DNA of 64,000 nt. Source: a virus. The DNA is taken from IMG/VR virus record IMGVR_UViG_3300045988_175028; one strand, written 5' to 3'. Within the stretch, counting starts at the first letter, position 1, and the number at the start of each line of letters is the position of its first letter. Both the position numbers and the translations under genes were made by a program. The notes beneath the pieces are model-generated. The model saw nothing but the letters and a program-made list of their open reading frames with translations, made no database searches and had not been told where the DNA came from. Shown here piece after piece: positions 8,701 through 48,840 of this stretch.

Positions 8701-9429
8701 TCACCCTCCAGCTTTCATATTTAATTGCTTTTGTGTCCCATACAAGTCGATATAAAATTTTTCTCTCTCACTCTGTTTATCTTTCGGAACTTCTTCTAAA
8801 ATTTCAAAACTGTAATTCCAAATTCCATTCCGCGCCATATGCGTATGAAGCGTTGAGCTGGCAACTTTTTCCATACCTAGCGCTGTCTGAATGTGAGCTT
8901 GCCATCTATCTTTAAAATTGACGGTTCGACCTATATAAGCCTCCCCAGTTGGAATATAAGTAATCTTATAAATTCCTCCAACTTTCTGCCCGACAACCCT
9001 CTTTATCATCTCATTTACAGGGCGCCGAGCAATACTCTCCCATATAACCTTAGGAAGAACTTCTTTATGACATAAATGATTTCTCATACTATCTAAAAGC
9101 TTTATATCTTCAATATCATTTTGCGTAAGTTGGATTTTATAGAAATCTTCTTTTTCGATTAGTTCTCGTTCTCGTCGTATCGCTTCATTTATAGCATCGC
9201 GCCGACTACGAAAATCTTCTAATTCTTTTTTAAGATAGGAAAGTTCATTATTATAACTTCTTTGTTTCGCTTGGAATTCTTGTTGGGCGTTTTCTTCTAA
9301 ATTTTTGTATTTTTCTTCTAAAGCCTTTCGATATAATTTATCAGTATCAGATTTTAGTTTTTGAATTTTTCTTTGTTGTTTTAGTAAAAGAAAAATAATT
9401 CCTAAAATCAATAAAACTAAAACTGCCAT
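8701..9429 (-). CDS. membrane-anchored coiled-coil GIY-YIG nuclease-domain protein
   Basis: N-terminal TM helix (AVLVLLILGIIFLLL), about 90-aa coiled coil, then GIYKITYIPTGEAYIGRTVNFKDRWQAH (GIY..YIG..R). Confidence 0.7.
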   Translation of the reverse strand: MAVLVLLILGIIFLLLKQQRKIQKLKSDTDKLYRKALEEKYKNLEENAQQEFQAKQRSYNNELSYLKKELEDFRSRRDAINEAIRRERELIEKEDFYKIQLTQNDIEDIKLLDSMRNHLCHKEVLPKVIWESIARRPVNEMIKRVVGQKVGGIYKITYIPTGEAYIGRTVNFKDRWQAHIQTALGMEKVASSTLHTHMARNGIWNYSFEILEEVPKDKQSEREKFYIDLYGTQKQLNMKAGG

Positions 9430-9436
9430 TATATTC

Positions 9437-10480
9437 TTACTCCCAATTAGTAATTCTTGTACGCTTTTTTCTTTGTGGCGTCATCCATAAAACACCATCT
9501 CGTGCACGAGTAATCCCAACATAGGATACTCTACACTCTTCGGGACTCCAAAGATTCAACCCCACACAGGCTACATAATCCCATTCCAAGCCTTTTGCAC
9601 TATGTACGGTCAAAACTTTTACTGTATTTTCTTCCATTTTTTTATCTAATTCTTCTTTTTTGAGGTCTCCCTGTTTGAAGCTATCACAAGGAATTCCATT
9701 ATCAACTAGATAATCTTTGATAGTATCAACCTGGGCATTGGTTCGTGCTAATACTGCCCATTTATGATATTTTTTACTAATATTTATCATATCTAGAATT
9801 AGCTGTTCATTATAAGGTTTCATTGCCACTGTTCCTCTGACCTGGCGCATAGCAATACTATCATCAGTCATGCTACATTTTTGAAGAGTAGACTTCGCAA
9901 AACGAAGAACATCAGGACAACAGCGATAATTTTCATTCATAGAATAAACTTTTGCCCCAAGCTTTTGCTGATATCTCTTCAAAAGGTCTGGACGACTACC
10001 TGCGAAGCCATATATCGATTGCCGTAAATCAAAAACAATAAAATATTCTTTCGCGTGAAGCATTTCAAAAATAAATTTTAGTTGAATTTCATTACTATCT
10101 TGGGCTTCATCACATAAGCAAATATCAATATTCGGCGTGCATTCTGGATGCTTTTGCATTAGATGAAAAAGTCCATCGAATTTTTCGTCGTTCATATACT
10201 TTATGGCTTCTTTTACACCATTTCTGAGTAGAAGATGCGCGCAATAAGAGTGGATAGTTCCAATAAATAGGTTATCATTATTATCAATTTGAAGACGTTT
10301 TTTCATTTCTCCAGAAGCCATATTTGTAAATGTAAAAGCCACCACACTTTTTCCTTTTTGAATACTTTGACGGACTTTTTCAGTTAAAACTTTCGTTTTT
10401 CCTGAACCAGCACTACTGCTTACAAAAATAATTGGTTCTGTCGCTTCTAATATAGTATTCTGTATATTACTTAACTCCAA
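9437..10480 (-). CDS. short UvrD/Rep-family SF1 helicase
   Basis: Walker A SSAGSGKT, motif II CDEAQD, TVHSAKGLEWDYV, YVGITRAR. Only 347 aa. Confidence 0.75.
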   Translation of the reverse strand: MELSNIQNTILEATEPIIFVSSSAGSGKTKVLTEKVRQSIQKGKSVVAFTFTNMASGEMKKRLQIDNNDNLFIGTIHSYCAHLLLRNGVKEAIKYMNDEKFDGLFHLMQKHPECTPNIDICLCDEAQDSNEIQLKFIFEMLHAKEYFIVFDLRQSIYGFAGSRPDLLKRYQQKLGAKVYSMNENYRCCPDVLRFAKSTLQKCSMTDDSIAMRQVRGTVAMKPYNEQLILDMINISKKYHKWAVLARTNAQVDTIKDYLVDNGIPCDSFKQGDLKKEELDKKMEENTVKVLTVHSAKGLEWDYVACVGLNLWSPEECRVSYVGITRARDGVLWMTPQRKKRTRITNWE

Positions 10481-11453: not shown

Positions 11454-11849
11454 CTATTTTTTTAGATATTCTCGATAAGCATTATCATTATGATAGCGGG
11501 TCCGGGCCAAATAAGCATCATTTAGTAAGTCCTTTACCGAAGAAATTTTATCCATGTCCCACCAAGGGATACAATAAAGAGGAATTTTATGAGAAAGACA
11601 ATAACTTATTTTTTCTCTATCTCTCTCTTGTGCTTTTAGGAAATCAGAGCGATTTTTGTAAAAGATTTTTGTAAATTCCGTATGCTGACGTCCTTGGACT
11701 TCTAAAAGAATATTCTCTTCGGGAAGGAAAAAATCAAATCTATAATATCCATGATGAAGGTCACCAAAAGTTTTTTCCTTTACAAATTTGACTTTTTCCC
11801 TATTGAGAATTTCAATTACTTTTTTCTCGTAAGATGAAACTTTATACAT
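11454..11849 (-). CDS. PD-(D/E)xK (Vsr/DUF559-like) endonuclease-fold protein
   Basis: YRFDFFLPEENILLEVQGRQH motif. The ATG at 11849 overlaps the ligase stop. Confidence 0.5.
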   Translation of the reverse strand: MYKVSSYEKKVIEILNREKVKFVKEKTFGDLHHGYYRFDFFLPEENILLEVQGRQHTEFTKIFYKNRSDFLKAQERDREKISYCLSHKIPLYCIPWWDMDKISSVKDLLNDAYLARTRYHNDNAYREYLKK

Positions 11850-12951
11850 TTCCAAAAATCTGATACCAGTCGCACTCACTCGCCATCTTATCACTTCTTA
11901 GGCGAACAGGGCGCGGATGCCTTAGACCATAACTATCAGCCATAACTTCCATTGCTGTAATCTCAATGACTTTTCCAAGATAAGATTTCCAATTCAATAG
12001 AATTTCCTCTTCAAGTCCGCTAAGATTTCCAACCTGAACCAGCTTCCCATCTTTATAAGCTCCAATTTTTAGAGAGCCAGCGCCACCAAGAAAATACATT
12101 TTTGTAATTGGTTCAATGGGATCTCCATCACTATAATTTTTATATAGAGAGTCCTCGACTTTCTCACCAGTAGATAAGTTCTCCCAGTACTTCCAGCTCA
12201 TAAGCTCTTTTCCATTGTAAAGACGAGTCGGCACGTTTGCTCCCATAATTACCACATCCAGGGTCTCTTGAAGTTCTTTCTTCACTTTGATTGTCATATG
12301 CGCGGGAGTTCGCTTGAAATAAATTGGGCAGTCCTTTCGAGTAATTACTACTCCTTCTCGTCCAGAAGCTAGATAGTCTTGAAGACGATTCCACAATTCT
12401 TTCCCATTATAATATTTAGCCCATTCTACATAAGGAGAACTTAATTGAGTAGAGATTTTTTCCAAAAGAGAAAAGCGCTCTATAGCTTTTGTATCTACTA
12501 GATTTACTCCATTATAGGCACAGATATCAAAAATATAGAAATGAAGCTTCTGGCCACTCTCTTGACGAGCAATGCACTTATCTTTGAGACATCCCAAAAG
12601 AGAGGTAATATTTTTTGAACCTTCATGTCCGGGAAGATAACATTCACTTAGGAGGACGGTCCCATTAGGTAATTGTGCCATAAAATCCTGAAGTTGGGGG
12701 ACCCATTCAATTTTATTTACGGCTTCACCCTTTACATTTTTTTTGCGGGCTACCATAAAACAATTTCCATCCTCATCCTTTATGAGACGCTGATAATAGC
12801 CATCAACTTTCAGAGCGCCATAATAATCTCCACTATAAATAGCATTTACCACTTCTGACTTTCGTTTTTCTTCAGAATAGGATGCGGGAATGCTCCAATA
12901 ACGCATACTTTCTGAATTGACCCAATCAATATCACCAATAAATCCCTTCAC
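11842..12951 (-). CDS. ATP-dependent DNA ligase
   Basis: Nucleotidyltransferase motifs: I LKVDGY, III LLSECY, IIIa FYIFD, IV EGVVIT, V IKVKK. Confidence 0.8.
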   Translation of the reverse strand: MKGFIGDIDWVNSESMRYWSIPASYSEEKRKSEVVNAIYSGDYYGALKVDGYYQRLIKDEDGNCFMVARKKNVKGEAVNKIEWVPQLQDFMAQLPNGTVLLSECYLPGHEGSKNITSLLGCLKDKCIARQESGQKLHFYIFDICAYNGVNLVDTKAIERFSLLEKISTQLSSPYVEWAKYYNGKELWNRLQDYLASGREGVVITRKDCPIYFKRTPAHMTIKVKKELQETLDVVIMGANVPTRLYNGKELMSWKYWENLSTGEKVEDSLYKNYSDGDPIEPITKMYFLGGAGSLKIGAYKDGKLVQVGNLSGLEEEILLNWKSYLGKVIEITAMEVMADSYGLRHPRPVRLRSDKMASECDWYQIFGNV

Positions 12952-13504
12952 AATTTTCTCCTTTCAAAAATAAATCCGTAAATTTATAAGCTATTTTTTC
13001 CAAATCTTCCAAAGTTCCATCATTATGGATATAAGTATTATAAGTATAGTTATGAACGTCAGAATCAGCATGGTTAGATTGAACCTGTTCATCAGTCTCA
13101 ATCCTCTCTACTATCAGAGTCCGCGCGCCAATTCTATCAACAAATTTTTGAATTTCCTTTGGTTCTCGACACATTATAAAGTAAAGGCACTTTTCTTCAT
13201 TATATCCTAGCTGCTTCCAGATTTCTTTACACCCTACATAAGAATTAATAATGTCTTTATAAGGAATATCATCCCATTGAGTCAAAATATCTTTTAGGTC
13301 TGATAGAAATTTTCTATCTTTAGGAGTTTTTTGGCCATTCCAACCACAGAATTTAGCAACCTCTTTTACAAAATCAACTGTAGAAATAATTCTACAACTA
13401 TAAGGGCCGACTCTTTTTTCCATTATTTTTTGAACCATTTCACAAAATGTATCTTTTCCTGACCTAGGTTAAGGAAAGCCGTTGACAACAACGACATTTC
13501 TCAT
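12932..13504 (-). pseudogene. P-loop (..RSGKDT) nucleotide/dNMP-kinase-like gene interrupted by an in-frame TAA
   Basis: Strong RBS (AAGAGGTG) before the ATG at 13504. Reads MRNVVVVNGFP-TAA-PRSGKDTFCEMVQK in one frame, with the stop at 13469-13471. Confidence 0.6.
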
Positions 13505-13671
13505 TCAATCACCTCTTTTATTATTATATGTAATTATATTTCTTACATATGGTCTATATAGGGCTCCCACCTATTTCTTACTCTATATCGTTTTTGTTTC
13601 TTTTTACATAAAAAGAAAATTTTCCTGCTTACAGGTTTATTTATATCATAAATCCAGACAAAAAACAAATT

Positions 13672-14115
13672 TTAGATTGATTTTCGGGCTTCTACGGCTA
13701 ACTTATCGACCTCATCATTCCAATCTTTTGAGCCCGTGTGCCCTTTTACTTTTTCAAAAGAAAACCGTTCATCCTCAAAAAAAGGAATAAGTTGTTGCCA
13801 AAGCTGGTTGTTTGCGACTGGCTCTTTTTTAGAATTTTTCCATCCATTCTTTTGCCAATTGCGAAACCATTTTTGGACATAGCAATTATGGCAATAAGCA
13901 CTATCAGTTCGAATTGTAATTTGGTCAGAGGGGCAGACTTCTTCAGCCCATCTACAAGCTGCAAGAATAGCTAATAACTCACACATATTATTTGTTGCCT
14001 CTGGAATTGGCATTGACCAACGATAAATTTCTTTACTGTCTTCTACCGCAATAAAAGCCGAACCACCAGGTCCAGGATTACCAGAACAAGCGCCGTCAGT
14101 ATAAATATAAATCAT
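13672..14115 (-). CDS. rnhA: ribonuclease H (RNase HI family)
   Basis: IYIYTDGACSGNPGPGG motif, downstream ELLAIL and TDS motifs. Start overlaps the upstream stop. Confidence 0.85.
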   Translation of the reverse strand: MIYIYTDGACSGNPGPGGSAFIAVEDSKEIYRWSMPIPEATNNMCELLAILAACRWAEEVCPSDQITIRTDSAYCHNCYVQKWFRNWQKNGWKNSKKEPVANNQLWQQLIPFFEDERFSFEKVKGHTGSKDWNDEVDKLAVEARKSI

Positions 14116-16377: not shown

Positions 16378-16526
16378 CCCCAACTAGCTCAGTTGGTTAG
16401 AGCACCCAACTTTATCGCATAGTTTAAAAGTAAAATAGCTGTTCTAGTCAGAAGATGCAAGGGCAGGACTTGCTGCGATAGCCAATAATTGGGAGGTCCT
16501 GTGTTCAACTCACAGGTTGGGGACCA
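16378..16526 (+). tRNA. tRNA-Ile(UAU), interrupted after nt 34 by a 72-nt tRNA-like insert
   Basis: Acceptor CCCCAAC/GTTGGGG, then A-CCA. D-arm GCTC-AGTTGGTTA-GAGC. Anticodon stem CCCAA/TTGGG. T-arm CTGTG-TTCAACT-CACAG. Residual loop CTT+ATAA. Confidence 0.7.
16413..16484 (+). ncRNA. nested tRNA-like element A (inside tRNA-Ile)
   Basis: Own acceptor stem TATCGCA/TGCGATA, then G-CCA. T-arm-like GCAAG-GGCAGGA-CTTGC. Weak D-arm and anticodon-arm mimics. Confidence 0.6.
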
Positions 16527-16661: not shown

Positions 16662-16801
16662 GCTGGTGTAGCTCAGAGGCAGAGCGGCGCACTTGGGTAG
16701 TTTCGTCTAAGAAAGACACCTAATAAGGAAATGTGAGTTCAAATCTTACAATTACTACAATAATGCGCAGGTCGAGATTTCGAAATTCTCCATCAGCTCC
16801 A
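16662..16801 (+). tRNA. tRNA-Thr(UGU), interrupted after nt 35 by a 65-nt tRNA-like insert
   Basis: Acceptor GCTGGTG/CATCAGC, then T-CCA. D-arm GCTC..GAGC. Anticodon stem GCGCA/TGCGC. Residual loop CTTG+TAA. T-stem has only 4 bp. Confidence 0.6.
16696..16760 (+). ncRNA. nested tRNA-like element B (inside tRNA-Thr)
   Basis: Acceptor GGTAGTT/AATTACT (two G-U pairs), then A-CAA. D-like GTCT/AGAC. T-arm GTGAG-TTCAAAT-CTTAC. Confidence 0.55.
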
Positions 16802-26412: not shown

Positions 26413-26441
26413 TTGAAAAATTCTTATATTTATAATATAAT
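26413..26441 (+). promoter_or_regulatory. class-1 promoter copy 7
   Basis: TTGAAA-N17-TATAAT plus ATATATAGAAAGTGAGAAAGGAG. Confidence 0.65.
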
Positions 26442-26472: not shown

Positions 26473-27102
26473 ATGGATTTTCCCTCTCGTCAAACTATTC
26501 ATGAGGTAGCGCAAGTTCTAAATGAATGGGGAATTACCGATTTCTTCAAAGGCACCTATAAGCAAAATAGTAATCGTTTCAATGTTTGGTGTTTGGAACT
26601 TTCCAAAAATACTAACCTAAAAGTGTCGAATGGATGCACAAAAATTGTAGTGAAGTTTGGGGATGATGGTTGGGTTATAAAGATTCCTTATAAGACTGAA
26701 ATCAATTATTGTCATCGTGAAGCAGAAAATTACGCACGGGCTCATAAAGCTCATCTTACTAACTTTTTTGCTCCTTGTTATTTCTATGGAGTAATTGATG
26801 AAATTCCAATTTATCTACAAAGACTGGTAGATAAAGAAGATTCAACAATTACTAGTGAATGTTGGAATTTTGCATATAGCAACAATCCCCAGGAAAAGGA
26901 AGAGACTGATGAAGATTATGCTGATAGAATCAGCAGCTATGTTGAAAATGATATGGATGATTATGAAGTAGTTGAGGCCATTATTGGAGAAAATCGAAAA
27001 CTTTTTGATTTTATCTATGAAAATGATATCAATGACCTTCATAAAGGAAATTTTGGATATTTGAATGATGCACCGGTTATTTTTGATTATAGCGGTTTTT
27101 GA
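26473..27102 (+). CDS. hypothetical protein, possible kinase-like fold
   Basis: ATG at 26473 after the leader. INDLHKGNFGY..VIFDYSG resembles the APH/protein-kinase catalytic loop plus a DFG-like motif. Confidence 0.4.
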   Translation: MDFPSRQTIHEVAQVLNEWGITDFFKGTYKQNSNRFNVWCLELSKNTNLKVSNGCTKIVVKFGDDGWVIKIPYKTEINYCHREAENYARAHKAHLTNFFAPCYFYGVIDEIPIYLQRLVDKEDSTITSECWNFAYSNNPQEKEETDEDYADRISSYVENDMDDYEVVEAIIGENRKLFDFIYENDINDLHKGNFGYLNDAPVIFDYSGF

Positions 27103-27122
27103 TAAGAAAGGAGAATAAAAAA

Positions 27123-27566
27123 ATGAATTATGTCTATGTTAAGTTTAGTGGTACGGAGAAGAATTATGTCTATAAGACTAAGTTGAATCTCATTAAGAAC
27201 GCGACCTATAAGATTGTTGCCGATGGGATTACAACCTATGCTAGTCCTGTCAAGGTCTGTTCTATTGTTCCTACTCGGCCTAATTTTGGCGGTATTATTC
27301 GTGAGATTACCACTGCCGAAATTATTACTGCTCCTCCTCGTCCTAAGGTAACGGCGAAGTTTGTTATCAATAAGGAAAAGGGTACGACTGTTGCTCTTTG
27401 GAAAGATGGAACTAAGACTATTGTGAAGTGTCAGACTGGGGATTCTTTTGATGCGGAGAAGGGAATCGCAATGTGTTTTATGAAGCGATACTTCAATAAT
27501 CGTGGATGGTATAATGAGTGGATGCGTGAGGTTCTGAAAGAGAATGGCTTGGCTGAAGAGAAGTGA
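27123..27566 (+). CDS. hypothetical protein
   Basis: ATG at 27123 behind GGAGAA. Confidence 0.5.
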   Translation: MNYVYVKFSGTEKNYVYKTKLNLIKNATYKIVADGITTYASPVKVCSIVPTRPNFGGIIREITTAEIITAPPRPKVTAKFVINKEKGTTVALWKDGTKTIVKCQTGDSFDAEKGIAMCFMKRYFNNRGWYNEWMREVLKENGLAEEK

Positions 27567-27711
27567 GGAAGGTTATTGCCTTCTTCACAACTGTAAGCTC
27601 GGTCGGCGCCAAGTACATGAAAAATGTACGAATCCTCATCGAGTAGGTTGCACAGATGGAAAGAAATGTAAACATTTATTGGTTATAAGAAAGGGGATGA
27701 ACACAAAATAA
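27544..27711 (+). CDS. small Cys/His-rich (zinc-binding-like) protein, 55 aa
   Basis: Below the ORF-track cut-off. C..H..C...H..C...H...C.....C.H pattern. Its stop overlaps the kinase ATG (TAATG). Confidence 0.35.
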   Translation: MAWLKRSEEGYCLLHNCKLGRRQVHEKCTNPHRVGCTDGKKCKHLLVIRKGMNTK

Positions 27712-28634
27712 TGTCAGCATTAATTATGTTGATGGGACTTTCTGGTTCTGGAAAAAGCACTTTGGCAGAAGAATATGCTAAGCTGTCTGGTGGAAAAGTT
27801 TTTTCTTCTGACAAAATTCGAGAAGAACTTTTTGGAAATGAAAACAATCAAACTCATAATGGAGAAGTTTTCAACGAGCTTCATAAACGAATTAAAAAAG
27901 CTTTAAGGAAGAACGAAATTTGTATTTATGATGCTACGAATTTAAACAGAAATAAAAGAATTAGCTTTCTTCGTACTCTTTCAGATATCACTTGTGAAAA
28001 AATTTGCATGATGGTTGCAACTCCAATTGAAATTTGTATTAAAAGAGACCAAAACAGAAGCAGAAAAGTTGGGAAAAAGGTTATTCATCGACAAGCTACT
28101 CAATTTCAAATTCCTTTAGATTATGAAGGCTGGGATAGTATTATGATTTATAACAATCCCAATTTTTCTGCCTCAGATTATAAAAAGCTAATTGATTATT
28201 TTCCAAAAGCAGTTATGCCACATGACTGCACACCATGGCATACAGAGAGCGTACAAGAACATCTTAATAGAACTTTAATGGAGATGTCTTTGCGTACTAA
28301 TGAATATTATTTGCTTCTTGCATCACGATATCATGATATTGGAAAATTCTATACTAAGACTTTTTATGATAGAAGCAAAAAGAAGACTACTGATAAAGCT
28401 CATTACTATGGACATGAAAACTATGGAGCCTATCTTTTTATGACCTCCTATGATTTTGTTACAAGTGGAAGTCTCAAACCAGCTTTTGAACAGGCATTGT
28501 TGCTTATTGCTCTTCATATGGAATTTGGTTCAAGAAAAAGTAAAGTTTTAAAAGAAATTCCAAAAAGTGCTCGTGAAGCCTTAGAGCTTTTAAATGAATG
28601 TGATATGCTTGGAAGTGTGAGAGGAGAGGACTAA
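27711..28634 (+). CDS. polynucleotide-kinase-like P-loop domain fused to an HD phosphohydrolase domain (RNA end-healing candidate)
   Basis: N-terminal GLSGSGKST..SSDKIR. C-terminal H..RYHDIGK..HYYGHENYG..ALHMEF (HD superfamily). Confidence 0.65.
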   Translation: MSALIMLMGLSGSGKSTLAEEYAKLSGGKVFSSDKIREELFGNENNQTHNGEVFNELHKRIKKALRKNEICIYDATNLNRNKRISFLRTLSDITCEKICMMVATPIEICIKRDQNRSRKVGKKVIHRQATQFQIPLDYEGWDSIMIYNNPNFSASDYKKLIDYFPKAVMPHDCTPWHTESVQEHLNRTLMEMSLRTNEYYLLLASRYHDIGKFYTKTFYDRSKKKTTDKAHYYGHENYGAYLFMTSYDFVTSGSLKPAFEQALLLIALHMEFGSRKSKVLKEIPKSAREALELLNECDMLGSVRGED

Positions 28635-28979
28635 ATGAAATTTTTTGGAACTTATGGTTGTAGTATGACCAACTCTATTTATAATATTGCTATTGAAGCA
28701 AGGGATGCTCAAAGCGCGCTAAAGTTTTGTTATGATAGTGCAGTAGAGGATAGAGATAGTTATGAAGGGCTTTATGGAGTTGAAACTTGGGAAGAGATTG
28801 CTGAGAATGAGGGTTTTATTATAGGGGAAATGTCTCAAGCGGAAGAGAACTATATTGATGACTTGTATGTTGACTCTATTGAGAGTGATATTATCTATAA
28901 TATAGAGCCTTTTGACATAAATAATGAGGAGCATCTAGAGATACTGAAAGAACAAGAATGTGAATTTTGGCAGGCGTAG
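28635..28979 (+). CDS. acidic hypothetical protein
   Basis: 114 aa, rich in Asp/Glu. Lies between the kinase-HD and ligase genes. Confidence 0.5.
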   Translation: MKFFGTYGCSMTNSIYNIAIEARDAQSALKFCYDSAVEDRDSYEGLYGVETWEEIAENEGFIIGEMSQAEENYIDDLYVDSIESDIIYNIEPFDINNEEHLEILKEQECEFWQA

Positions 28980-28992
28980 AAAGGAGGCTAAA

Positions 28993-30078
28993 ATGGAACT
29001 TCAAAAGTTTCTAATGGAGTATAAAGACGATTGGGAGGAAATCTTGGATAGAGAGCCTTATTGCCTAAAATGGAACAAGTGGAAAGGTTTCGTAAGTTTC
29101 AAGTATAACCAAATTCAGTCTGATTTTTCTAATCCAATTGTCCGCGAAGCCAGAGGAGCAGTCTTTGTGGAAGAAACTTGGGAGTGTGTATCTAGAGCAT
29201 TTGATAAGTTCTTCAACTATGGGGAACCTAATGCTTCTGCAGTTGATTGGACCACCGCGCGGATTATGGAGAAAATAGACGGGTCGCTGATGCGTCTTTT
29301 CTACTGGAAAGGCGAATGGTATCTAGTTACCAATTCTGGTATCGATGCATATTCTGCACCGACTGGTAATGTGAATTATCCGACTTTTGGGCGTATTTTT
29401 GAGGAAGGTCTTCGGAATTTGGGATATAAAAGTTTAGAGGATTTTTGTAATAAACTAAACAAGTATCGGACTTATATGTTTGAGTTGGTTAGTCCTTATA
29501 CTCGTGTAGTAATTCCCTATGAAAGTATTGGAATTTATTATCTTGGAGAGCGCAGAATGATAGATTATCAGGAGTTTTATTGTCCTCCTGTTTTTCCAGA
29601 GTTTTGTCATCCTAAACTTTATAACTGTTCTAATCTTTTTGATTTGATTAGAATGGCGCAAGAGCTTCCTTGGGATAAAGAGGGCTATGTTGTATGCGAT
29701 AAAAACTTCAATCGTATCAAAGTTAAGTCTCCTCAGTATGTTCTTGCTCACTACGTCCGCAATAATAACGTAATTACAGAAGAGCGCCTAATGGAAGTAA
29801 TCCTAAAAGGAGAAATTGAAGAGTTTTCTTGCTACGCAAGTGAATATCTTCCCAAATTACAGGAACTTCAGAAGAGAAAATCTACTTTACAAGCAGAGGC
29901 TGAACTCCTTCGTTCTCTTCTCCAGTCCCAGTTCCATTTTACCTCCCGAAAGGAGTTCGCCTCTACTGTAAATAAAATTTCTAATCCAGTAATTCGCCAG
30001 TTTTGTTTTAGTGATAAGACTTGGGAAGATATGACCAAAGATTGGTCTGCAAAAAAGTGGGTTGAGAAATTGAAGTAA
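28993..30078 (+). CDS. ATP-dependent RNA ligase (T4 Rnl1-like)
   Basis: Motif I MEKIDGSL (KxDGS), motif III YMFELV, motif IV KEGYVVCD, motif V RIKVKSPQY. 361 aa. Confidence 0.7.
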   Translation: MELQKFLMEYKDDWEEILDREPYCLKWNKWKGFVSFKYNQIQSDFSNPIVREARGAVFVEETWECVSRAFDKFFNYGEPNASAVDWTTARIMEKIDGSLMRLFYWKGEWYLVTNSGIDAYSAPTGNVNYPTFGRIFEEGLRNLGYKSLEDFCNKLNKYRTYMFELVSPYTRVVIPYESIGIYYLGERRMIDYQEFYCPPVFPEFCHPKLYNCSNLFDLIRMAQELPWDKEGYVVCDKNFNRIKVKSPQYVLAHYVRNNNVITEERLMEVILKGEIEEFSCYASEYLPKLQELQKRKSTLQAEAELLRSLLQSQFHFTSRKEFASTVNKISNPVIRQFCFSDKTWEDMTKDWSAKKWVEKLK

Positions 30079-30106
30079 AAGATAAAACTGAAGGAGGATA
30101 AGTCTT

Positions 30107-30649
30107 ATGACACGTAAAAACTTAGTTCTCCTGTTGGCAATTATCTCATTTATCTGCCTGGGTTTTATTGCCCAGGCTAATTTTTTTATTACAAAAATTG
30201 ATGCTATTGAAAGAGAAAATTCTAACTTGTCAGCAGAGAATACTAGTAAAGAGCAACAAATCCAAGAACTTGAGGAACGCAATCGCGCCTTAGAAGAAGA
30301 ACTTCAAACTAAAATAGTTTATTTTGAGGAAGAAGAAATTCTAGCAAAACTTCTATGGTGTGAAGCAGGAAATCAATCTTGGGAAGGGCAGGTATATACT
30401 TGTTCTGCTATTCTAAATTATTGTGAAAGAAACAATACCTCAATTTGGGATAGCGCACATAATATAAATGCTTTTGAGCCTGCACCATATGTTGATGACG
30501 CTGAACCAACAGCGACACAATATGAGGTTATTTATTATGTATTGAATGGAGGGAGAATTCCTGATATTTGTTGGTTTAGAACCGGTCAATATCATGATTT
30601 TGGAACTCCAGTTGCAAAAGTTGGCGACCATTACTTTTCAAAGCCATAA
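30107..30649 (+). CDS. membrane-anchored SleB-type cell-wall hydrolase
   Basis: N-terminal TM helix and coiled coil. C-terminal LLWCEAGNQSWEGQVYTCSAILN (Hydrolase_2/SleB-like). Confidence 0.65.
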   Translation: MTRKNLVLLLAIISFICLGFIAQANFFITKIDAIERENSNLSAENTSKEQQIQELEERNRALEEELQTKIVYFEEEEILAKLLWCEAGNQSWEGQVYTCSAILNYCERNNTSIWDSAHNINAFEPAPYVDDAEPTATQYEVIYYVLNGGRIPDICWFRTGQYHDFGTPVAKVGDHYFSKP

Positions 30650-30654
30650 GAAAA

Positions 30655-30689
30655 GACCCTACACCTTAGAAGTGTAGGGTCTTTTTTTT
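30655..30689. terminator. bidirectional intrinsic terminator
   Basis: GACCCTACAC..GTGTAGGGTC hairpin flanked by A-runs and T-runs, between convergent genes. Confidence 0.7.
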
Positions 30690-30981
30690 ACTTTGTCAGA
30701 AGATTCCAAAGGTCATCTATTGTTTTTAGAGGAATATCATTCCCATTTTCTGTTACAGTGCCTGGCTTCCATTTTTCTCCAAAGTTTAGTTCCCACATCC
30801 AGTAACCAATCCAATCACACTTATCATCAAACTGGGCCTTCAGATATTTTGTAATCTCACTTTCAATTTCCATAACAGGACTATTTACAAAATCAATACC
30901 ATAGTCTTTATATAAATTACAAATATACTCACTATGATTTCTTACTGCATTGATAAGTTCTGAAAAATTCTCTTTGGTCAT
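30688..30981 (-). CDS. hypothetical protein
   Basis: 97-aa ORF, a lone minus-strand gene. Confidence 0.5.
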   Translation of the reverse strand: MTKENFSELINAVRNHSEYICNLYKDYGIDFVNSPVMEIESEITKYLKAQFDDKCDWIGYWMWELNFGEKWKPGTVTENGNDIPLKTIDDLWNLLTK

Positions 30982-31720: not shown

Positions 31721-32962
31721 ATGGCAACTCTAAACATCCGCATCCAACTTCGCAACGATACGGCTGAAAATTGGACTAGTGCTAATCCAGTTTTGCTAAA
31801 AGGCGAAATGGGTGTTGAAATTGATACTGGAAAAACAAAAATTGGTAATGGTACTGATAACTGGAAAACTTTGAAGTATTCTGGTGTAGATGAGGATACC
31901 ATCAAGGGAATTATTGACAATAATCGTAGTGCTTTTACAGAAGTAACTCCTAATGAGGGAGAGACTGATGCCCAAGCACTGGCACGCGTCATTACTAATC
32001 CTAAGAAGGGAGATATGGCAGTTGTAGTAAGAACTTTTGTAGAAGGTAAACAATCTTATACTGCTTATATCCATGATGGTACTGGTTTCAAAGCTATGGA
32101 TGGTAATTATTCTGCGGAGAATGTTTATTTTGATAAAGACCTAAAATTGACGGAAGCATTTGGTCGTTATAAGCCCGATGCATCTGGTTCTGTTAAAGTT
32201 CCATCCACCGGTCAGAGTGTTTATAGTCTAATTGATGATGCTTTCTCTCAGTCTAGAAATCCCACCACTACTCAACCTAGTGCTTCAGTTAGTATTACGG
32301 CCAATAGTGGTACTTTTGAAATAGGTACAAAAAAGAACCTAACTTATAGTGCCTCTTTGAATACTGGGGCTTATTCTTATGGCCCTACTCCTACAGGAGT
32401 TAGTGCTACAACTTATACAGCTACTTGCGACGGAAAGACTCTAACAGGTGCAACTGGTACATTTGAAAATATTGTAGCAGATGGAACAAAAAAGATTAGT
32501 ATTTCTATCGCTCACTCTGCTGGTAGTATTCCTAAAACGAATAAGGGGGCAGATTATGCAGATGGTCAAATTAAAGCTGGCACCAAAACAGCCACTTCTA
32601 GTCAAGCCTTAATTGGCGTCCGTTATATGTTCTGGGGCCCGATGACTGAGGATGTCGCTCTAAATTCTGCAAATATTCGTGCTTTGGCTCATAACAAGGC
32701 AAGTGGCACTGGTAATCTTTCCACTTTCGGAGCTGGTGCGGGAGCCAAAAAGGTAGTGGTAGCTGTCCCTGCTGGCCGGAGAATTACTAAAGTAATAATG
32801 CCCAGCGCGCTAAATGCTGATGTCACTTCTCTATTCGTAAAGCAAGGCACACAAGTTCAGGTTCAAGGTGCTAATGCTTACGCTGCTGCTGCCTATGATG
32901 TATATGTTTATCAACCTGCTTCTATTGATGCTGGTGAAACATATACCGTAACTATTGGTTGA
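31721..32962 (+). CDS. tail fibre / receptor-binding protein with Mtd-N/hyaluronidase-type N-terminal module
   Basis: RNDTAENWTSANPVLLKGEMGVEIDTGKTKIGNGTDNWKTLKY. Confidence 0.65.
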   Translation: MATLNIRIQLRNDTAENWTSANPVLLKGEMGVEIDTGKTKIGNGTDNWKTLKYSGVDEDTIKGIIDNNRSAFTEVTPNEGETDAQALARVITNPKKGDMAVVVRTFVEGKQSYTAYIHDGTGFKAMDGNYSAENVYFDKDLKLTEAFGRYKPDASGSVKVPSTGQSVYSLIDDAFSQSRNPTTTQPSASVSITANSGTFEIGTKKNLTYSASLNTGAYSYGPTPTGVSATTYTATCDGKTLTGATGTFENIVADGTKKISISIAHSAGSIPKTNKGADYADGQIKAGTKTATSSQALIGVRYMFWGPMTEDVALNSANIRALAHNKASGTGNLSTFGAGAGAKKVVVAVPAGRRITKVIMPSALNADVTSLFVKQGTQVQVQGANAYAAAAYDVYVYQPASIDAGETYTVTIG

Positions 32963-47867: not shown

Positions 47868-48104
47868 ATGATTAGTCTTGAGAATTATGGCCTATCTGAT
47901 TACGAGCTTGGTGTATATTCTGACCTGTTGGAGAATTTCCCTCAACTAAATAATATGGCAATAGACCAAATGAAAGTTTTTGCTGATAGTCTTTATGTTG
48001 AAGCGTGTGGGCTTCGAAGTGAAGCAGAAGATATTGATAACTGGATGCATGTTCTTGAGAATTTTATTGGAACGATTCAAGAAAGAGAGGAATATAATGA
48101 TTGA
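47868..48104 (+). CDS. hypothetical protein
   Basis: ORF with an RBS. Confidence 0.5.
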   Translation: MISLENYGLSDYELGVYSDLLENFPQLNNMAIDQMKVFADSLYVEACGLRSEAEDIDNWMHVLENFIGTIQEREEYND

Positions 48105-48840
48105 TAGTCTATATAAACCATTTCAAAAATGGAGCGAAAAGGGTACAATTTGGATTTTTAGCGACCCTCATTTTGAGGATGAAGACCTCGTAAATGCCTA
48201 TGATGACAGGCCCTCTGCAGATGAACTTGTACGCCGTATCAATTCTAAAGTTGGAAAGTGTGATACGCTTATTTGTCTTGGCGATGTTGGCGCGCTCTCT
48301 TATGCCCCTTTTTTGAGAGGATATAAGGTTTTGGTTATGGGCAATCATGATGCAGGTAGGACTTTATATGAAAGACAGAAAGTGTGGAGAAAGTTTGATA
48401 AAGATAAATATACAAAAACCGAAGCCCTTAGTGAGATGAAACGCCGTCATCCCGACTGTGAGTGTAGTATCAAAAGAGGGAATGAGCCCAATTCTCTTTT
48501 TGACTACTGGGAAGTTTGTGCGGACAATAGGCTCTTTGATGAAGTGTATGAAGGTCCTGTTATGATTTCTCCAAAGCTTGTGTTGTCTCATGAGCCTATT
48601 GATTGTGCTGGTTGGGCTTTCAATCTTCATGGTCATATTCATGCCCGCTCTCATAAAAATGACGAATGCCATTATAATGTTTGTGCTGATTGCCACAATT
48701 ATCTTCCTTTGAATCTAAATCGGTTTTTGAAGTCAGGAGCCCTCTCCAAGATTTCTTCTATCCATCGTCAGACGATTGACGAGGCAACCGCGCGACGTAA
48801 GAAGCGAGGTTATCGTTTAACCAGTCCCAAAAATAAGTAA
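48097..48840 (+). CDS. calcineurin-like metallophosphoesterase
   Basis: SDPHF, LGDVG, GNHD and GHIH motifs. ATG at 48097. Confidence 0.7.
   Translation: MIDSLYKPFQKWSEKGTIWIFSDPHFEDEDLVNAYDDRPSADELVRRINSKVGKCDTLICLGDVGALSYAPFLRGYKVLVMGNHDAGRTLYERQKVWRKFDKDKYTKTEALSEMKRRHPDCECSIKRGNEPNSLFDYWEVCADNRLFDEVYEGPVMISPKLVLSHEPIDCAGWAFNLHGHIHARSHKNDECHYNVCADCHNYLPLNLNRFLKSGALSKISSIHRQTIDEATARRKKRGYRLTSPKNK

What the first reader, a model, noticed from the sequence alone, without database searches (positions are those of the whole stretch)
27544..30078. RNA end-healing and sealing module (P-loop kinase fused to HD phosphohydrolase, plus Rnl1-like ligase) in the same genome as the anticodon-split tRNAs
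**Seen directly**
- 27711-28634 combines GLSGSGKST (polynucleotide-kinase-type P-loop) with a C-terminal HD-domain signature (RYHDIGK...HYYGHENYG).
- 28993-30078 carries ligase motifs I (KIDGS), III, IV (EGYVV) and V (IKVKSPQY), close to the T4 Rnl1 pattern.
- A 55-aa Cys/His peptide (27544-27711) is translationally coupled upstream (TAATG overlap).
- An acidic 114-aa protein sits between the two enzymes.

**Established knowledge**
- T4 Pnkp plus Rnl1 repair tRNA-Lys cleaved in the anticodon loop by PrrC.
- Fungal and plant tRNA splicing uses ligase, kinase and cyclic-phosphodiesterase activities (Trl1).

**Inference**
- Replacing the T4 HAD-type phosphatase with an HD domain gives a kinase/CPDase/ligase set in trans.
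- That set could either counter host anticodon nucleases or complete splicing of the three interrupted tRNAs. This is a functional link that has not been described for a phage.
Basis: partly seen in the sequence, partly recalled or inferred. Interest (0 to 1): 0.75.

Follow-up and report, generated by a model that had tools for sequence, protein, structure and literature searches.

The report
Phage RNA repair operon: kinase-HD plus ligase
A ~118-kb gut phage carries an RNA repair kit, an end-healing kinase fused to an HD phosphatase next to a T4-type RNA ligase, that most likely mends tRNAs cut by host defences; a role in splicing the tRNA-like inserts found in three of the phage's own tRNA genes is possible but not shown.

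Summary
ORF 27711-28634 is a 5'-OH polynucleotide kinase fused to a C-terminal HD phosphohydrolase. All catalytic and metal-binding residues are invariant across 33-35 homologues, and the structure model has pLDDT 95. ORF 28993-30078 is a T4 Rnl1-family RNA ligase; the best fold match is T4 Rnl1 (1.4e-14), and DNA ligases and capping enzymes score far lower. The 55-aa Cys/His ORF and the acidic 114-aa ORF are real genes under purifying selection.

The kind is known. T4 Pnkp/Rnl1 and Runella HD-Pnk with its ligase are the precedents. PHROG 6931 has the same two domains in the opposite order. Bacillus phage Tsamsa has the same Pnk-HD next to an Rnl1-type ligase. Of 80 viral Pnk-HD loci, 57 have an RNA ligase gene nearby.

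The proposed link to the split tRNAs is not supported by comparison. All 11 sibling genomes that cover the site carry the module, and three of them show no split tRNA in the sequence examined.

The split tRNAs are real. Each carries a precise insertion of a tRNA-like minihelix ending in NCCA or NCAA, and sibling phages hold filled and empty alleles. They resemble the "enigmatic introns" reported in Lak megaphages in 2019. RNase P/Z-type excision followed by Rnl1 sealing remains an untested possibility.

The parts
26413..26441 (+). Promoter-like site (TTGAAA-17-TATAAT) just after a terminator-like hairpin (26376-26399). Probable start of the operon.
   Evidence: consensus scan only, 11 of 12 hexamer positions match.
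26473..27102 (+). ORF of unknown function, 209 aa as called in relatives (the longest ORF starts at 26365, 245 aa). First gene of the conserved block.
   Evidence: phrog_4301 of unknown function.
27099..27566 (+). ORF of unknown function (155 aa; 147 aa as called in relatives). It overlaps both neighbouring genes.
   Evidence: pN/pS 0.09-0.26; no family match.
27544..27711 (+). 55-aa Cys/His-rich protein (C12, H15, C17, H25, C28, H32, C36, C42, H44), possibly metal-binding. Its stop overlaps the start of the kinase gene.
   Evidence: Intact in 9 siblings with pN/pS 0.14-0.42; all Cys and His are kept in L004.
27711..28151 (+). 5'-OH polynucleotide kinase domain of Pnk-HD (residues 1-147).
   Evidence: AAA_33 2.3e-23; C. 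thermocellum Pnkp kinase 4gp7 6.9e-18; TIGR04075 1.5e-21; Foldseek 4gp6 2.4e-10, target-normalised TM 0.78; invariant K15, D34, R37, R116, with R118 near-invariant.
28239..28619 (+). HD phosphohydrolase domain of Pnk-HD (residues 177-303). Predicted 2',3'-cyclic phosphodiesterase / 3'-phosphatase.
   Evidence: Invariant H177, H184, H208-D209, H235, H269, D298. An HD-domain profile best matches the HD region of PDB 3wfo-3wfs at 2.8e-6. Matches phrog_6931 profile positions 39-156.
28635..28979 (+). 114-aa strongly acidic protein found only in this clade, lying between the healing and sealing genes.
28993..30078 (+). T4 Rnl1-family ATP-dependent RNA ligase.
30107..30649 (+). 180-aa ORF of unknown function and last gene of the block. 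My reading of the sequence: a hydrophobic N-terminus followed by a coiled-coil-like stretch. Probably not part of RNA repair.
30648..30688 (+). Strong terminator-like hairpin (17 pairs followed by a T run) closing the block.
16378..16526 (+). tRNA-Ile(UAU) gene interrupted between nucleotides 34 and 35 by a 72-nt tRNA-like minihelix (16413-16484; 7-bp stem, hairpin, then GCCA). Possible substrate of the ligase.
   Evidence: The empty allele in L021 and L014 is identical to the exons.
16662..16801 (+). tRNA-Thr(UGU) gene interrupted between nucleotides 35 and 36 by a 65-nt tRNA-like unit (16696-16760, ending ACAA).
18738..18873 (+). tRNA-Lys(UUU) gene interrupted between nucleotides 35 and 36 by a 61-nt tRNA-like unit (18772-18832, ending ACCA).

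Best explanation
The block at about 26.4-30.7 kb is a phage RNA repair operon.

Proposed mechanism:
1. [quoted passage not shown]
2. The HD domain of the 307-aa Pnk-HD protein opens and removes the 2',3'/3' phosphate.
3. Its N-terminal P-loop kinase phosphorylates the 5'-OH.
4. The Rnl1-type ligase then seals the 3'-OH/5'-PO4 nick through a lysyl-AMP intermediate at K94.

What is shown: the identity of the folds, conservation of every catalytic and metal-binding residue, and recurrent gene linkage between Pnk-HD and RNA ligases.

What is inferred: the substrate (tRNA), the trigger (a host nuclease), the exact chemistry of the HD domain, and any role for the 55-aa Cys/His protein and the acidic 114-aa protein. 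Those two could be a cofactor and a nucleic-acid mimic or regulator.
For: Kinase:
- The best sequence and fold matches are the kinase domain of C. thermocellum Pnkp, an RNA repair enzyme (6.9e-18; 2.4e-10). Mammalian PNKP, fungal Trl1 kinase and T4 Pnk follow.
- The P-loop, the SSDxxR Asp/Arg motif and the lid arginines are conserved.

HD domain:
- The full H..H..HD..H..H..D set is invariant.
- A profile of the HD domain best matches the HD region of PDB 3wfo-3wfs (2.8e-6).

Structure: the model has pLDDT 95 and pTM 0.92.

Ligase:
- PF09511 scores above its cut-off; the hit to TIGR02308 (T4 RnlA family) is below its cut-off.
- The top fold match is T4 Rnl1 (1.4e-14).
- The phage has a separate ATP-dependent DNA ligase at 11842-12951.

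Linkage:
- The gene order is conserved in every relative examined.
- Of 80 IMG/VR Pnk-HD loci, 57 have an RNA ligase gene nearby: 22 Rnl1-type and 35 PF09414 with a PHA02142 OB domain. 29 also carry the RNA-repair nucleotidyltransferase RlaP.
- Bacillus phage Tsamsa has its Rnl1-type gene overlapping a Pnk-HD gene.

Precedent: T4 Pnkp/Rnl1 and Runella HD-Pnk with its ligase.

Operon signals: a promoter-like site at 26413 and a strong terminator at 30648.
Against: - No anticodon nuclease or host is known for this uncultured phage.
- No activity has been measured.
- Runella HD-Pnk also heals DNA ends (paper title quoted), so RNA specificity rests on the ligase partner.
- The whole-protein Pfam HD score is just under the cut-off (21.0 against 22).
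- The ligase scores far below the NCBIfam equivalog cut-off (57.9 against 242), so it is a distant family member and its substrate preference could differ from that of T4 Rnl1.
- The operon also holds four proteins of unknown function.
Confidence: 0.66

Rival explanations
1. The module, or at least its ligase, completes splicing of the phage's own interrupted tRNAs. The tRNA-like insert would be cut out at its 5' end by RNase P and just after its NCCA by an RNase Z/BN-type endonuclease. The Rnl1-type ligase would then join the two tRNA halves in the anticodon loop. Pnk-HD would be needed only if one of the cuts leaves 5'-OH or cyclic-phosphate ends.
For: - Three tRNA genes in the window carry precise inserts.
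- Every insert class spans exactly a 7-bp acceptor-like stem, a hairpin, a discriminator base and CCA (CAA in one class). That matches the known requirements of RNase P and 3'-end processing.
- The minihelix is under selection: 12 of 12 pairs are formed and 3 show compensatory changes.
- The exons of the filled tRNA-Ile allele are identical to the empty allele in siblings.
- No intact Ile(UAU), Thr(UGU) or Lys(UUU) gene is present in the window, although AAA, ACA and ATA codons are used. The interrupted genes are therefore probably still needed.
- A break in the anticodon loop is the classic substrate of T4 Rnl1.
- Lak megaphages, the other lineage reported with tRNA-like introns, also encode an RNA ligase (Rnl2).
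Against: - The module is present in all 11 siblings that cover the site. Three of them (contigs 179000, 177369, 180318) show no split tRNA in the sequence examined, which is the tRNA array near the anchor gene and not the whole genome.
- Pnk-HD/ligase pairs occur widely in phages where no such inserts are known.
- Co-occurrence has no statistical power here because the module is universal in the clade.
- No endonuclease that cuts after CCA has been identified, and there is no RNA evidence of splicing.
- RNase P/Z-type ends would leave the kinase and HD domains with nothing to do.
Confidence: 0.2
2. The ligase mainly acts as a tail-fibre attachment factor, the second function of T4 gp63 (Rnl1). 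It is placed here because the tail-fibre and baseplate genes lie next door.
For: - phrog_562 is annotated 'RNA ligase and tail fiber protein attachment catalyst'.
- Genes with Mtd_N, Gp10_C baseplate and BspA-repeat domains follow at 31.7-38.5 kb.
Against: - All nucleotidyl-transferase motifs are invariant.
- The gene is tightly linked to an end-healing enzyme in many unrelated phages, in either order.
- A strong terminator separates it from the tail genes.
Confidence: 0.06
3. The healing enzyme works on DNA ends, or on the phage's own ribozyme-cleaved transcripts, rather than on host-damaged tRNA. The tRNA array contains a twister-like self-cleaving ribozyme, which would leave 5'-OH and cyclic-phosphate ends.
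For: - Runella HD-Pnk is described as a DNA/RNA end-healing enzyme.
- The twister-P1-like element at 19256-19344 has its conserved core intact apart from one substitution and two single-base gaps.
- RAGATH-33 lies at 20165-20277.
Against: - The linked ligase is an RNA ligase, and the phage has its own DNA ligase elsewhere.
- Ribozyme-cleaved leader sequences do not need rejoining.
- The twister hit is below the Rfam threshold (43 bits against 67).
Confidence: 0.06

Closest known systems
Bacteriophage T4 Pnkp + Rnl1 (tRNA restriction-repair against PrrC)
   Same: A phage-encoded 5'-kinase, a 3'-end phosphoesterase and an Rnl1-family ligase on separate polypeptides. The ligase's best sequence and fold match is T4 Rnl1.
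   Different: The phosphatase is an HD metal-dependent domain, not the HAD (DxDxT) domain. The kinase is closer to bacterial Pnkp than to T4 Pnk. The ligase is only about 18% identical to T4 Rnl1 and falls below the NCBIfam equivalog cut-off. Two small conserved proteins are interleaved with the enzymes.
Runella slithyformis HD-Pnk and its adjacent ligase (Munir & Shuman 2017, as described in PMC6097658)
   Same: An HD phosphoesterase fused to a P-loop polynucleotide kinase, encoded next to (there, overlapping) an ATP-dependent ligase gene.
   Different: The domain order is reversed: HD is N-terminal in Runella and C-terminal here. The Runella system is bacterial, not phage. Its cluster also has Tpt1 and a methyltransferase-HIT protein, and its ligase did not seal standard substrates. 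I could not obtain the Runella sequence to measure similarity directly.
PHROG family 6931 (phage HD-Pnk, listed as 'unknown function')
   Same: Both domains are homologous. The kinase matches profile positions 186-339 (6.3e-34) and the HD domain matches positions 39-156 (5.5e-9).
   Different: The two domains are in the opposite order along the polypeptide.
Bacillus phage Tsamsa gp174 (Rnl1-type) / gp175 (Pnk-HD) and related large Bacillus and Lysinibacillus phages
   Same: The same Pnk-HD architecture over the full length (31-36% identity, 96-99% coverage), directly next to an Rnl1-type ligase.
   Different: The gene order is ligase then Pnk-HD, with overlapping genes. There is no 55-aa or 114-aa partner. 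The genes are annotated only as hypothetical, polynucleotide kinase or HD-domain protein, and I found no study of them in the library searched.
Bacterial Pnkp/Hen1 (Clostridium thermocellum Pnkp)
   Same: The closest solved kinase domain (about 30% identity, 6.9e-18), from a dedicated RNA repair enzyme.
   Different: There the phosphatase is a calcineurin-type metallophosphoesterase, the ligase domain is on the same polypeptide, and Hen1 adds a 2'-O-methyl mark.
Fungal and plant Trl1 tRNA splicing ligase
   Same: The same three activities (ligase of the Rnl1 superfamily, P-loop kinase, cyclic phosphodiesterase), used for tRNA splicing. The Trl1 ligase and kinase domains appear among the fold matches.
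   Different: Trl1 is one polypeptide with a 2H-type phosphodiesterase. It requires a 2'-PO4 at the junction and then needs Tpt1. No Tpt1 was seen among the window ORFs scanned (not exhaustive).
Lak megaphage 'enigmatic' tRNA introns (Devoto et al. 2019, PMC6784885)
   Same: Phage tRNA genes with inserts in the anticodon loop that themselves look like a tRNA. The inserts are identical across samples, occur as presence/absence alleles, and the predicted intron is offset by one base. The genome also encodes an RNA ligase.
   Different: The phage lineage is unrelated (about 540 kb, Prevotella host). The Lak introns are longer (79-114 nt), carry an extra 5' segment and end in CTA, ACA or GCA rather than NCCA. 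The Lak ligase is Rnl2-type. No mechanism was proposed there.

Membership tests
5'-OH polynucleotide kinase (P-loop, T4 Pnk / bacterial Pnkp type) | Walker A P-loop GxxxxGK(S/T) | tested here: met
   GLSGSGKST; G9, G14 and K15 are invariant.
5'-OH polynucleotide kinase (P-loop, T4 Pnk / bacterial Pnkp type) | Catalytic Asp and 5'-OH-site Arg just after strand 2 (SSDxxR), plus lid arginines | tested here: met
   S32, S33, D34 and R37 are invariant and align with 'SSDfcR' of C. thermocellum Pnk. R116 is invariant and R118 near-invariant; they align with its 'RtdR'.
5'-OH polynucleotide kinase (P-loop, T4 Pnk / bacterial Pnkp type) | Fold matches solved polynucleotide kinases better than other P-loop kinases | tested here: met
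   Foldseek ranks 1-6 are C. thermocellum Pnk (2.4e-10, target-normalised TM 0.78). Mammalian PNKP, fungal Trl1 kinase and T4 Pnk follow. Gluconate, shikimate and APS kinases rank lower.
5'-OH polynucleotide kinase (P-loop, T4 Pnk / bacterial Pnkp type) | Transfers phosphate from NTP to a 5'-OH polynucleotide end | not testable with these tools
   Needs an enzyme assay.
HD phosphohydrolase superfamily | H...HD...D metal-binding residues | tested here: met
   H177, H184, H208-D209, H235, H269 and D298 are invariant in 33-35 sequences.
HD phosphohydrolase superfamily | Pfam PF01966 at or above its gathering score | tested here: inconclusive
   21.0 bits against 22 for the whole protein. 22.2 bits for the domain alone, and 22 of 24 family members match, best 1.6e-7.
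HD phosphohydrolase superfamily | 2',3'-cyclic phosphodiesterase / 3'-phosphatase activity on RNA ends | not testable with these tools
   Inferred only from architecture (Runella HD-Pnk) and from the nearest solved relative, the HD region of PDB 3wfo-3wfs.
HD-Pnk bifunctional end-healing enzymes (Runella type) | HD and Pnk domains on one polypeptide | tested here: met
   a single confident two-domain model with pTM 0.92.
HD-Pnk bifunctional end-healing enzymes (Runella type) | N-terminal HD, C-terminal kinase | tested here: not met
   Here the kinase is residues 1-147 and the HD domain residues 177-303. phrog_6931 has the opposite order. The protein works like an HD-Pnk but is a separate, swapped-order family.
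HD-Pnk bifunctional end-healing enzymes (Runella type) | Encoded next to an ATP-dependent polynucleotide ligase | tested here: met
   The ligase lies 359 bases downstream in the window. 57 of 80 related loci have a ligase gene nearby.
Rnl1 (T4 RnlA) family of ATP-dependent RNA ligases | Nucleotidyl-transferase motifs I (KxDG), III, IV and V | tested here: met
   K94/D96/G97, F163-E164-L165, E230-G231-Y232-V233 and K243/K245 are invariant in 32 sequences. They align to T4 'KEDGS', 'FEFV', 'EGYV' and 'KIKS'.
Rnl1 (T4 RnlA) family of ATP-dependent RNA ligases | Family profile above the curated cut-off | tested here: inconclusive
   Pfam PF09511 scores 57 bits against 28.3, which passes. NCBIfam TIGR02308, an equivalog model, scores 57.9 against 242.25, which fails. 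It is a family member but not a close equivalent of T4 RnlA.
Rnl1 (T4 RnlA) family of ATP-dependent RNA ligases | Fold closest to Rnl1 rather than to Rnl2, Rnl3, Rnl5, DNA ligase or capping enzyme | tested here: met
   T4 Rnl1 1.4e-14; archaeal Rnl3 and the Trl1 ligase domain about 3e-8; Naegleria Rnl about 4e-5; DNA ligases and capping enzymes 1.6e-4 or weaker.
Rnl1 (T4 RnlA) family of ATP-dependent RNA ligases | C-terminal helical domain that gives tRNA specificity | tested here: inconclusive
   The model has an all-helical C-terminal region (residues 247-360). Foldseek aligns the whole length to T4 Rnl1, but with rmsd 18 and query-normalised TM 0.51. Sequence alignment stops at residue 283.
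Rnl1 (T4 RnlA) family of ATP-dependent RNA ligases | Seals 3'-OH/5'-PO4 breaks in tRNA anticodon loops | not testable with these tools
   Needs an enzyme assay.
Trl1-type healing-and-sealing tRNA splicing pathway | 2H-type cyclic phosphodiesterase and a Tpt1 2'-phosphotransferase partner | tested here: not met
   The phosphoesterase is HD-type, not 2H. No Tpt1/KptA match appeared among the 38 window ORFs scanned against Pfam. The scan was not exhaustive.
Trl1-type healing-and-sealing tRNA splicing pathway | Intron bounded by a bulge-helix-bulge motif cut by a splicing endonuclease | tested here: not met
   Read from the sequences. The junctions lie in an internal loop of 3-4 nt on one side and 7-8 nt on the other, between the anticodon stem and the insert's 7-bp stem. 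The insertion sites are 34/35 and 35/36, not 37/38. No endonuclease of that family was seen.

The most novel reading that the evidence does not exclude
The Rnl1-type ligase, with Pnk-HD as a back-up healer, could be the joining enzyme of a protein-dependent tRNA splicing pathway in a bacteriophage.

In this reading, mobile tRNA-like 'minihelix-CCA' inserts sit inside the anticodons of phage tRNA-Ile, tRNA-Thr and tRNA-Lys. Host RNase P and a 3'-end endonuclease excise them, and the phage ligase rejoins the halves.

A variant of the same idea: the inserts arose when the ligase stitched processed mini-tRNAs into nuclease-cut anticodon loops. This would explain the 'enigmatic' tRNA introns first seen in Lak megaphages.
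Probability: 0.2. Interest if true: 0.85.

Novelty: new member of a known kind. Interest (0 to 1): 0.42.

Why it matters
As a repair kit, this module adds a widespread, unstudied enzyme family to the known phage counter-measures against tRNA-cleaving defences. The family is Pnk-HD, with at least 290 clusters at E<1e-5 and 581 viral loci. It pairs with interchangeable ligases of the Rnl1 or PF09414 type, often together with RlaP.

Cultured Bacillus phages of the Tsamsa group carry the same pair, so the biochemistry and genetics can be tested directly.

The larger prize is indirect. The same phage clade carries precise, structurally conserved tRNA-like inserts in anticodon loops, with filled and empty alleles among siblings. 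If the ligase joins the halves, that would be a protein-dependent tRNA splicing route in a bacterial virus. It would also answer a question left open since 2019.

Tried and rejected
- **DNA similarity to GenBank phages.** No match for 27000-30700 or for the four insert sequences. The clade is uncultured.
- **DNA ligase or capping enzyme for 28993-30078.** Rejected. A separate DNA ligase exists at 11842-12951.
- **The 55-aa ORF as a chance ORF.** Rejected. It is intact with pN/pS about 0.25 in nine siblings. In some relatives it overlaps a 15-aa N-terminal extension of Pnk-HD; in the window that extension is closed by TAA at its second codon.
- **ARAGORN's anticodon calls (Lys, Pro, Gln, and Arg in siblings).** Rejected after comparing filled and empty alleles.
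- **Bulge-helix-bulge or group I intron models for the inserts.** Rejected. The inserts are 56-72 nt, Rfam gives no intron or ribozyme match, and the geometry is wrong.
- **Co-occurrence of the module with split tRNAs.** Uninformative, because the module is universal in the clade.
- **Free-standing donor copies of the inserts.** None found in the sequence held.
- **A splicing endonuclease among neighbouring ORFs.** Only an HNH homing-type endonuclease at 19620-20117 was found.
- **Distant homologues of the acidic 114-aa protein.** None outside the clade.
- **Full text of Munir & Shuman 2017 and Burroughs & Aravind 2016.** Not held in the library.
- **Scan of the Tsamsa genome for split tRNAs.** Started and abandoned after the first 50 kb showed no tRNA features.
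- **Fold search for the HD domain alone.** Not possible.

Full report
**1. The observation**

The 307-aa product of 27711-28634 has a P-loop, GLSGSGKST.
- It matches Pfam AAA_33 (2.3e-23, residues 4-134) and, weakly, Pfam HD (residues 177-276; 21.0 bits against a cut-off of 22).
- The 361-aa product of 28993-30078 matches Pfam RNA_lig_T4_1 (57 bits against a cut-off of 28.3) and phrog_562, the T4 RnlA family (6.4e-45).
- The TAA stop of the 55-aa ORF (27544-27711) shares one base with the ATG of the kinase gene.
- The 114-aa ORF (28635-28979) has 28 acidic and 5 basic residues by my count.

**2. The healing enzyme**

The kinase half is best matched, among solved proteins, by the kinase domain of Clostridium thermocellum Pnkp, a dedicated RNA repair enzyme.
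- The sequence match is 6.9e-18.
- The NCBIfam 'bacterial Pnkp' model matches at 1.5e-21.

A search of 5.8 billion proteins gave 290 relatives at E<1e-5.
- Nearly all are 290-330 aa and align over the full length.
- They come mostly from 100-175 kb metagenomic contigs.

In alignments of 33-35 of them the invariant residues fall into two groups:
- **Kinase:** G9, G14 and K15 (P-loop); S32, S33, D34 and R37 (aligned with the SSDxxR catalytic Asp/Arg of C. thermocellum Pnk); and R116. R118 is invariant in the 33-sequence alignment and at least 90% conserved in the 35-sequence one.
- **HD domain:** H177, H184, H208, D209, G211, K212, H235, H269 and D298, which is a complete set of metal ligands.

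The AlphaFold model is confident (pLDDT 95, pTM 0.92).
- Its best matches in the PDB are C. thermocellum Pnk (2.4e-10), then mammalian PNKP, fungal Trl1-type kinases and T4 Pnk.

A profile of the HD half alone gives further matches.
- Its best solved match is the HD region of PDB 3wfo-3wfs (2.8e-6). The depositors named that protein 'Poly A polymerase'. To my knowledge it is a bacterial class II tRNA nucleotidyltransferase, but I did not verify this.
- Cas3 HD and PhnZ follow.
- 22 of 24 family members hit Pfam HD.

The two halves match PHROG 6931 (343 positions, 'unknown function') in swapped order.
- The kinase matches profile positions 186-339.
- The HD domain matches positions 39-156.

Phages therefore carry both an HD-Pnk and a Pnk-HD arrangement of the same two domains. 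The window protein is the Pnk-HD form.

**3. The ligase**

- Sequence search of the PDB finds only T4 Rnl1 (1e-8).
- Motifs I, III, IV and V are invariant in 32 homologues.
- The model (pLDDT 91) matches T4 Rnl1 best (1.4e-14). Archaeal Rnl3 and the ligase domain of fungal Trl1 follow at about 3e-8. DNA ligases and capping enzymes score 1.6e-4 or weaker.
- The score against the NCBIfam 'T4 RnlA' equivalog model is far below its cut-off (57.9 against 242). This is a distant Rnl1-family member, not a close T4 orthologue.
- The phage has a separate ATP-dependent DNA ligase at 11842-12951.

**4. The gene block and its conservation**

Close and distant relatives keep the same order: ClpP, PhoH, a 560-aa ORF, a 209-aa ORF, a 147-aa ORF, the 55-aa ORF, Pnk-HD, the 114-aa ORF, Rnl1, a 180-aa ORF.

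Consensus scans suggest one transcription unit (no more than that):
- a terminator-like hairpin and a promoter-like site at 26376-26441;
- a 17-pair terminator at 30648-30688.

The two small ORFs behave as genes.
- The 55-aa ORF is intact in nine siblings, down to 77% nucleotide identity, with pN/pS 0.14-0.42.
- The 114-aa ORF has pN/pS 0.10-0.29.
- The 114-aa protein has no relative outside this clade.

Pnk-HD itself occurs as sharply different alleles, 92-97% or 48-54% identical to the window protein. These sit between flanking genes that stay 82-100% identical, so the gene is exchanged by recombination.

**5. How general the pairing is**

Among cultured phages, the large Bacillus and Lysinibacillus siphoviruses have full-length Pnk-HD homologues.
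- Examples are Tsamsa, Nate, Chewbecca, Izhevsk and LC76P1, at 29-36% identity.
- In Tsamsa the gene overlaps the end of an Rnl1-type ligase gene.

Of 80 IMG/VR loci that encode a Pnk-HD, 57 have an RNA ligase gene nearby.
- 22 have an Rnl1-type ligase within 4 kb, on either side.
- 35 others have a PF09414 RNA ligase with a PHA02142 OB domain within about 2.5 kb on the same strand.
- 29 have the RNA-repair nucleotidyltransferase RlaP.

The stable partner of Pnk-HD is therefore 'an RNA ligase', not one ligase family. This is what an end-healing enzyme should look like.

The literature agrees.
- HD-Pnk next to a ligase was characterised in Runella (quoted in PMC6097658).
- A survey of jumbo phages states that polynucleotide kinases and phosphoesterases accompany ATP-dependent RNA ligases, and that in a few phages the phosphatase is calcineurin-like or HD-like (PMC7824862).

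**6. The split tRNAs**

Intron-aware ARAGORN finds three interrupted tRNA genes in the window. The same kinds occur in 9 of 12 informative sibling loci (the 13th locus fetched lacks the tRNA region).

Comparing filled and empty alleles corrects both the boundaries and the anticodons.
- **tRNA-Ile(UAU), 16378-16526.** Its exons are identical to the intact gene in L021 and L014. It carries a 72-nt insert (16413-16484) between nucleotides 34 and 35.
- **tRNA-Thr(UGU), 16662-16801.** It carries a 65-nt insert (16696-16760) between nucleotides 35 and 36.
- **tRNA-Lys(UUU), 18738-18873.** It carries a 61-nt insert (18772-18832) between nucleotides 35 and 36. This insert is 100% identical in two clearly different tRNA-Lys bodies.
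- **A fourth class** (56 nt) occurs in siblings.

Every insert is exactly one tRNA-like unit: a 7-bp acceptor-like stem, internal hairpins including a T-arm-like hairpin, a discriminator base, and CCA (CAA in the 65-nt class).
- Rfam scores two of them as tRNA (37-38 bits).
- In the 72-nt class all 12 pairs of the minihelix are formed in every sequence, and 3 pairs show compensatory double changes. Six of the eight variable columns lie in those pairs.

This phenomenon has been reported once. [quoted passage not shown]
- The Lak introns are identical across cohorts and show presence/absence alleles.
- No mechanism was given.
- The Lak genomes also encode an RNA ligase, read there as a repair enzyme (PMC6784885).

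**7. Does the module serve the split tRNAs?**

The comparative test has no power in favour of a link and gives some weight against a dedicated one.
- All 11 sibling genomes that cover the site carry Pnk-HD and, wherever the downstream sequence was examined, the ligase.
- That includes three genomes with no split tRNA in the sequence examined, which is the tRNA array near the anchor gene and not the whole genome.
- The Pnk-HD/ligase pair is widespread well beyond this clade.

Chemistry also matters.
- An insert shaped like a pre-tRNA should be cut by RNase P at its 5' end.
- It would then need an endonuclease that cuts after CCA. From memory, E. coli RNase BN/Z and Thermotoga RNase Z do this.
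- Both reactions leave 3'-OH and 5'-PO4 ends, which need only the ligase.

Several facts still argue that the interrupted genes must be expressed.
- The window has no intact Ile(UAU), Thr(UGU) or Lys(UUU) gene.
- The exons show no decay.
- AAA makes up 57% of Lys codons, ACA 22% of Thr codons and ATA 14% of Ile codons.

An anticodon-loop break is the classic Rnl1 substrate. I therefore keep the splicing role as a live minority hypothesis at about 0.2.

**8. Verdict**

The finding is a correct identification of an RNA end-healing and sealing operon.
- It is a new member of a known kind, with a swapped-order Pnk-HD healing enzyme and two clade-specific small partners.
- Its most likely role is counter-defence repair of nuclease-broken tRNA.
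- The claimed novelty, a link to tRNA splicing, is neither shown nor excluded.
- The most interesting object nearby is the family of tRNA-like inserts, which deserves its own experimental follow-up.

Noticed in passing
window 16413-16484, 16696-16760, 18772-18832; siblings L010, L012-L014, L016, L017, L020-L022: The inserts in the three split tRNAs are precise tRNA-like minihelix units ending in NCCA (NCAA in one class). Sibling phages hold filled and empty alleles. One 61-nt insert is 100% identical in two different tRNA-Lys genes, which suggests it is mobile. ARAGORN mis-assigns the anticodons: the genes are Ile(UAU), Thr(UGU) and Lys(UUU).
   Followed up: partly
window 19256-19344 (+): Twister-P1-like self-cleaving ribozyme inside the tRNA array. 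It scores 43 bits, below the Rfam threshold of 67, but the conserved core (UAA.GC, CGGUCCCAAG.CCG, GC.GAGGG) is intact apart from one substitution and two single-base gaps. One loop holds 28 nt where the model has 6.
   Followed up: partly
window 22094-22688 (+) and 20165-20277 (+): A full-length ROOL RNA (302 bits) and a RAGATH-33 RNA (139 bits) lie in and just after the tRNA array.
   Followed up: no
window 27666-27710; L004 2518-2562: Many relatives start Pnk-HD 15 codons earlier (MYSFVSYKKGDEDKI...), overlapping the 3' end of the 55-aa ORF in another frame. In the window this extension is closed by TAA at its second codon, so the gene starts at 27711.
   Followed up: partly
L103-L110 around 13020-13940 (equivalent to window 27711-28634): Pnk-HD occurs as very divergent alleles (92-97% or 48-54% amino-acid identity) between flanking genes that stay 82-100% identical. 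This indicates allele replacement by recombination, as expected for a gene involved in an arms race.
   Followed up: partly
window 19620-20117 (+); L005 1331-1951: Homing-type endonuclease genes sit inside the tRNA arrays: HNH in the window and GIY-YIG in L005. The tRNA content of the arrays is highly mosaic, even between phages whose flanking gene is 100% identical (L021 against the window).
   Followed up: no
window 8701-10480 (-): A 347-aa UvrD-type helicase ORF lies directly next to a GIY-YIG endonuclease ORF. The helicase gene may be interrupted by a mobile element.
   Followed up: no
window 31721-32962 (+); L006 14047-15297 and 18243-18518: Tail-fibre-region proteins have an Mtd_N domain (major tropism determinant), which hints at a diversity-generating retroelement. 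Neither a reverse transcriptase nor template/variable repeats were looked for.
   Followed up: no
L045-L102 (IMG/VR loci with Pnk-HD): In other phage groups Pnk-HD sits beside an RlaP nucleotidyltransferase, a PF09414 RNA ligase with a PHA02142 OB domain, and in seven loci a protein with DUF2828, DUF7788 and VWA-like domains. These look like larger RNA repair islands.
   Followed up: partly
window 47980-48840 (+): A calcineurin-like metallophosphoesterase ORF (286 aa) lies elsewhere in the window. Any relation to RNA or DNA end processing is unknown.
   Followed up: no
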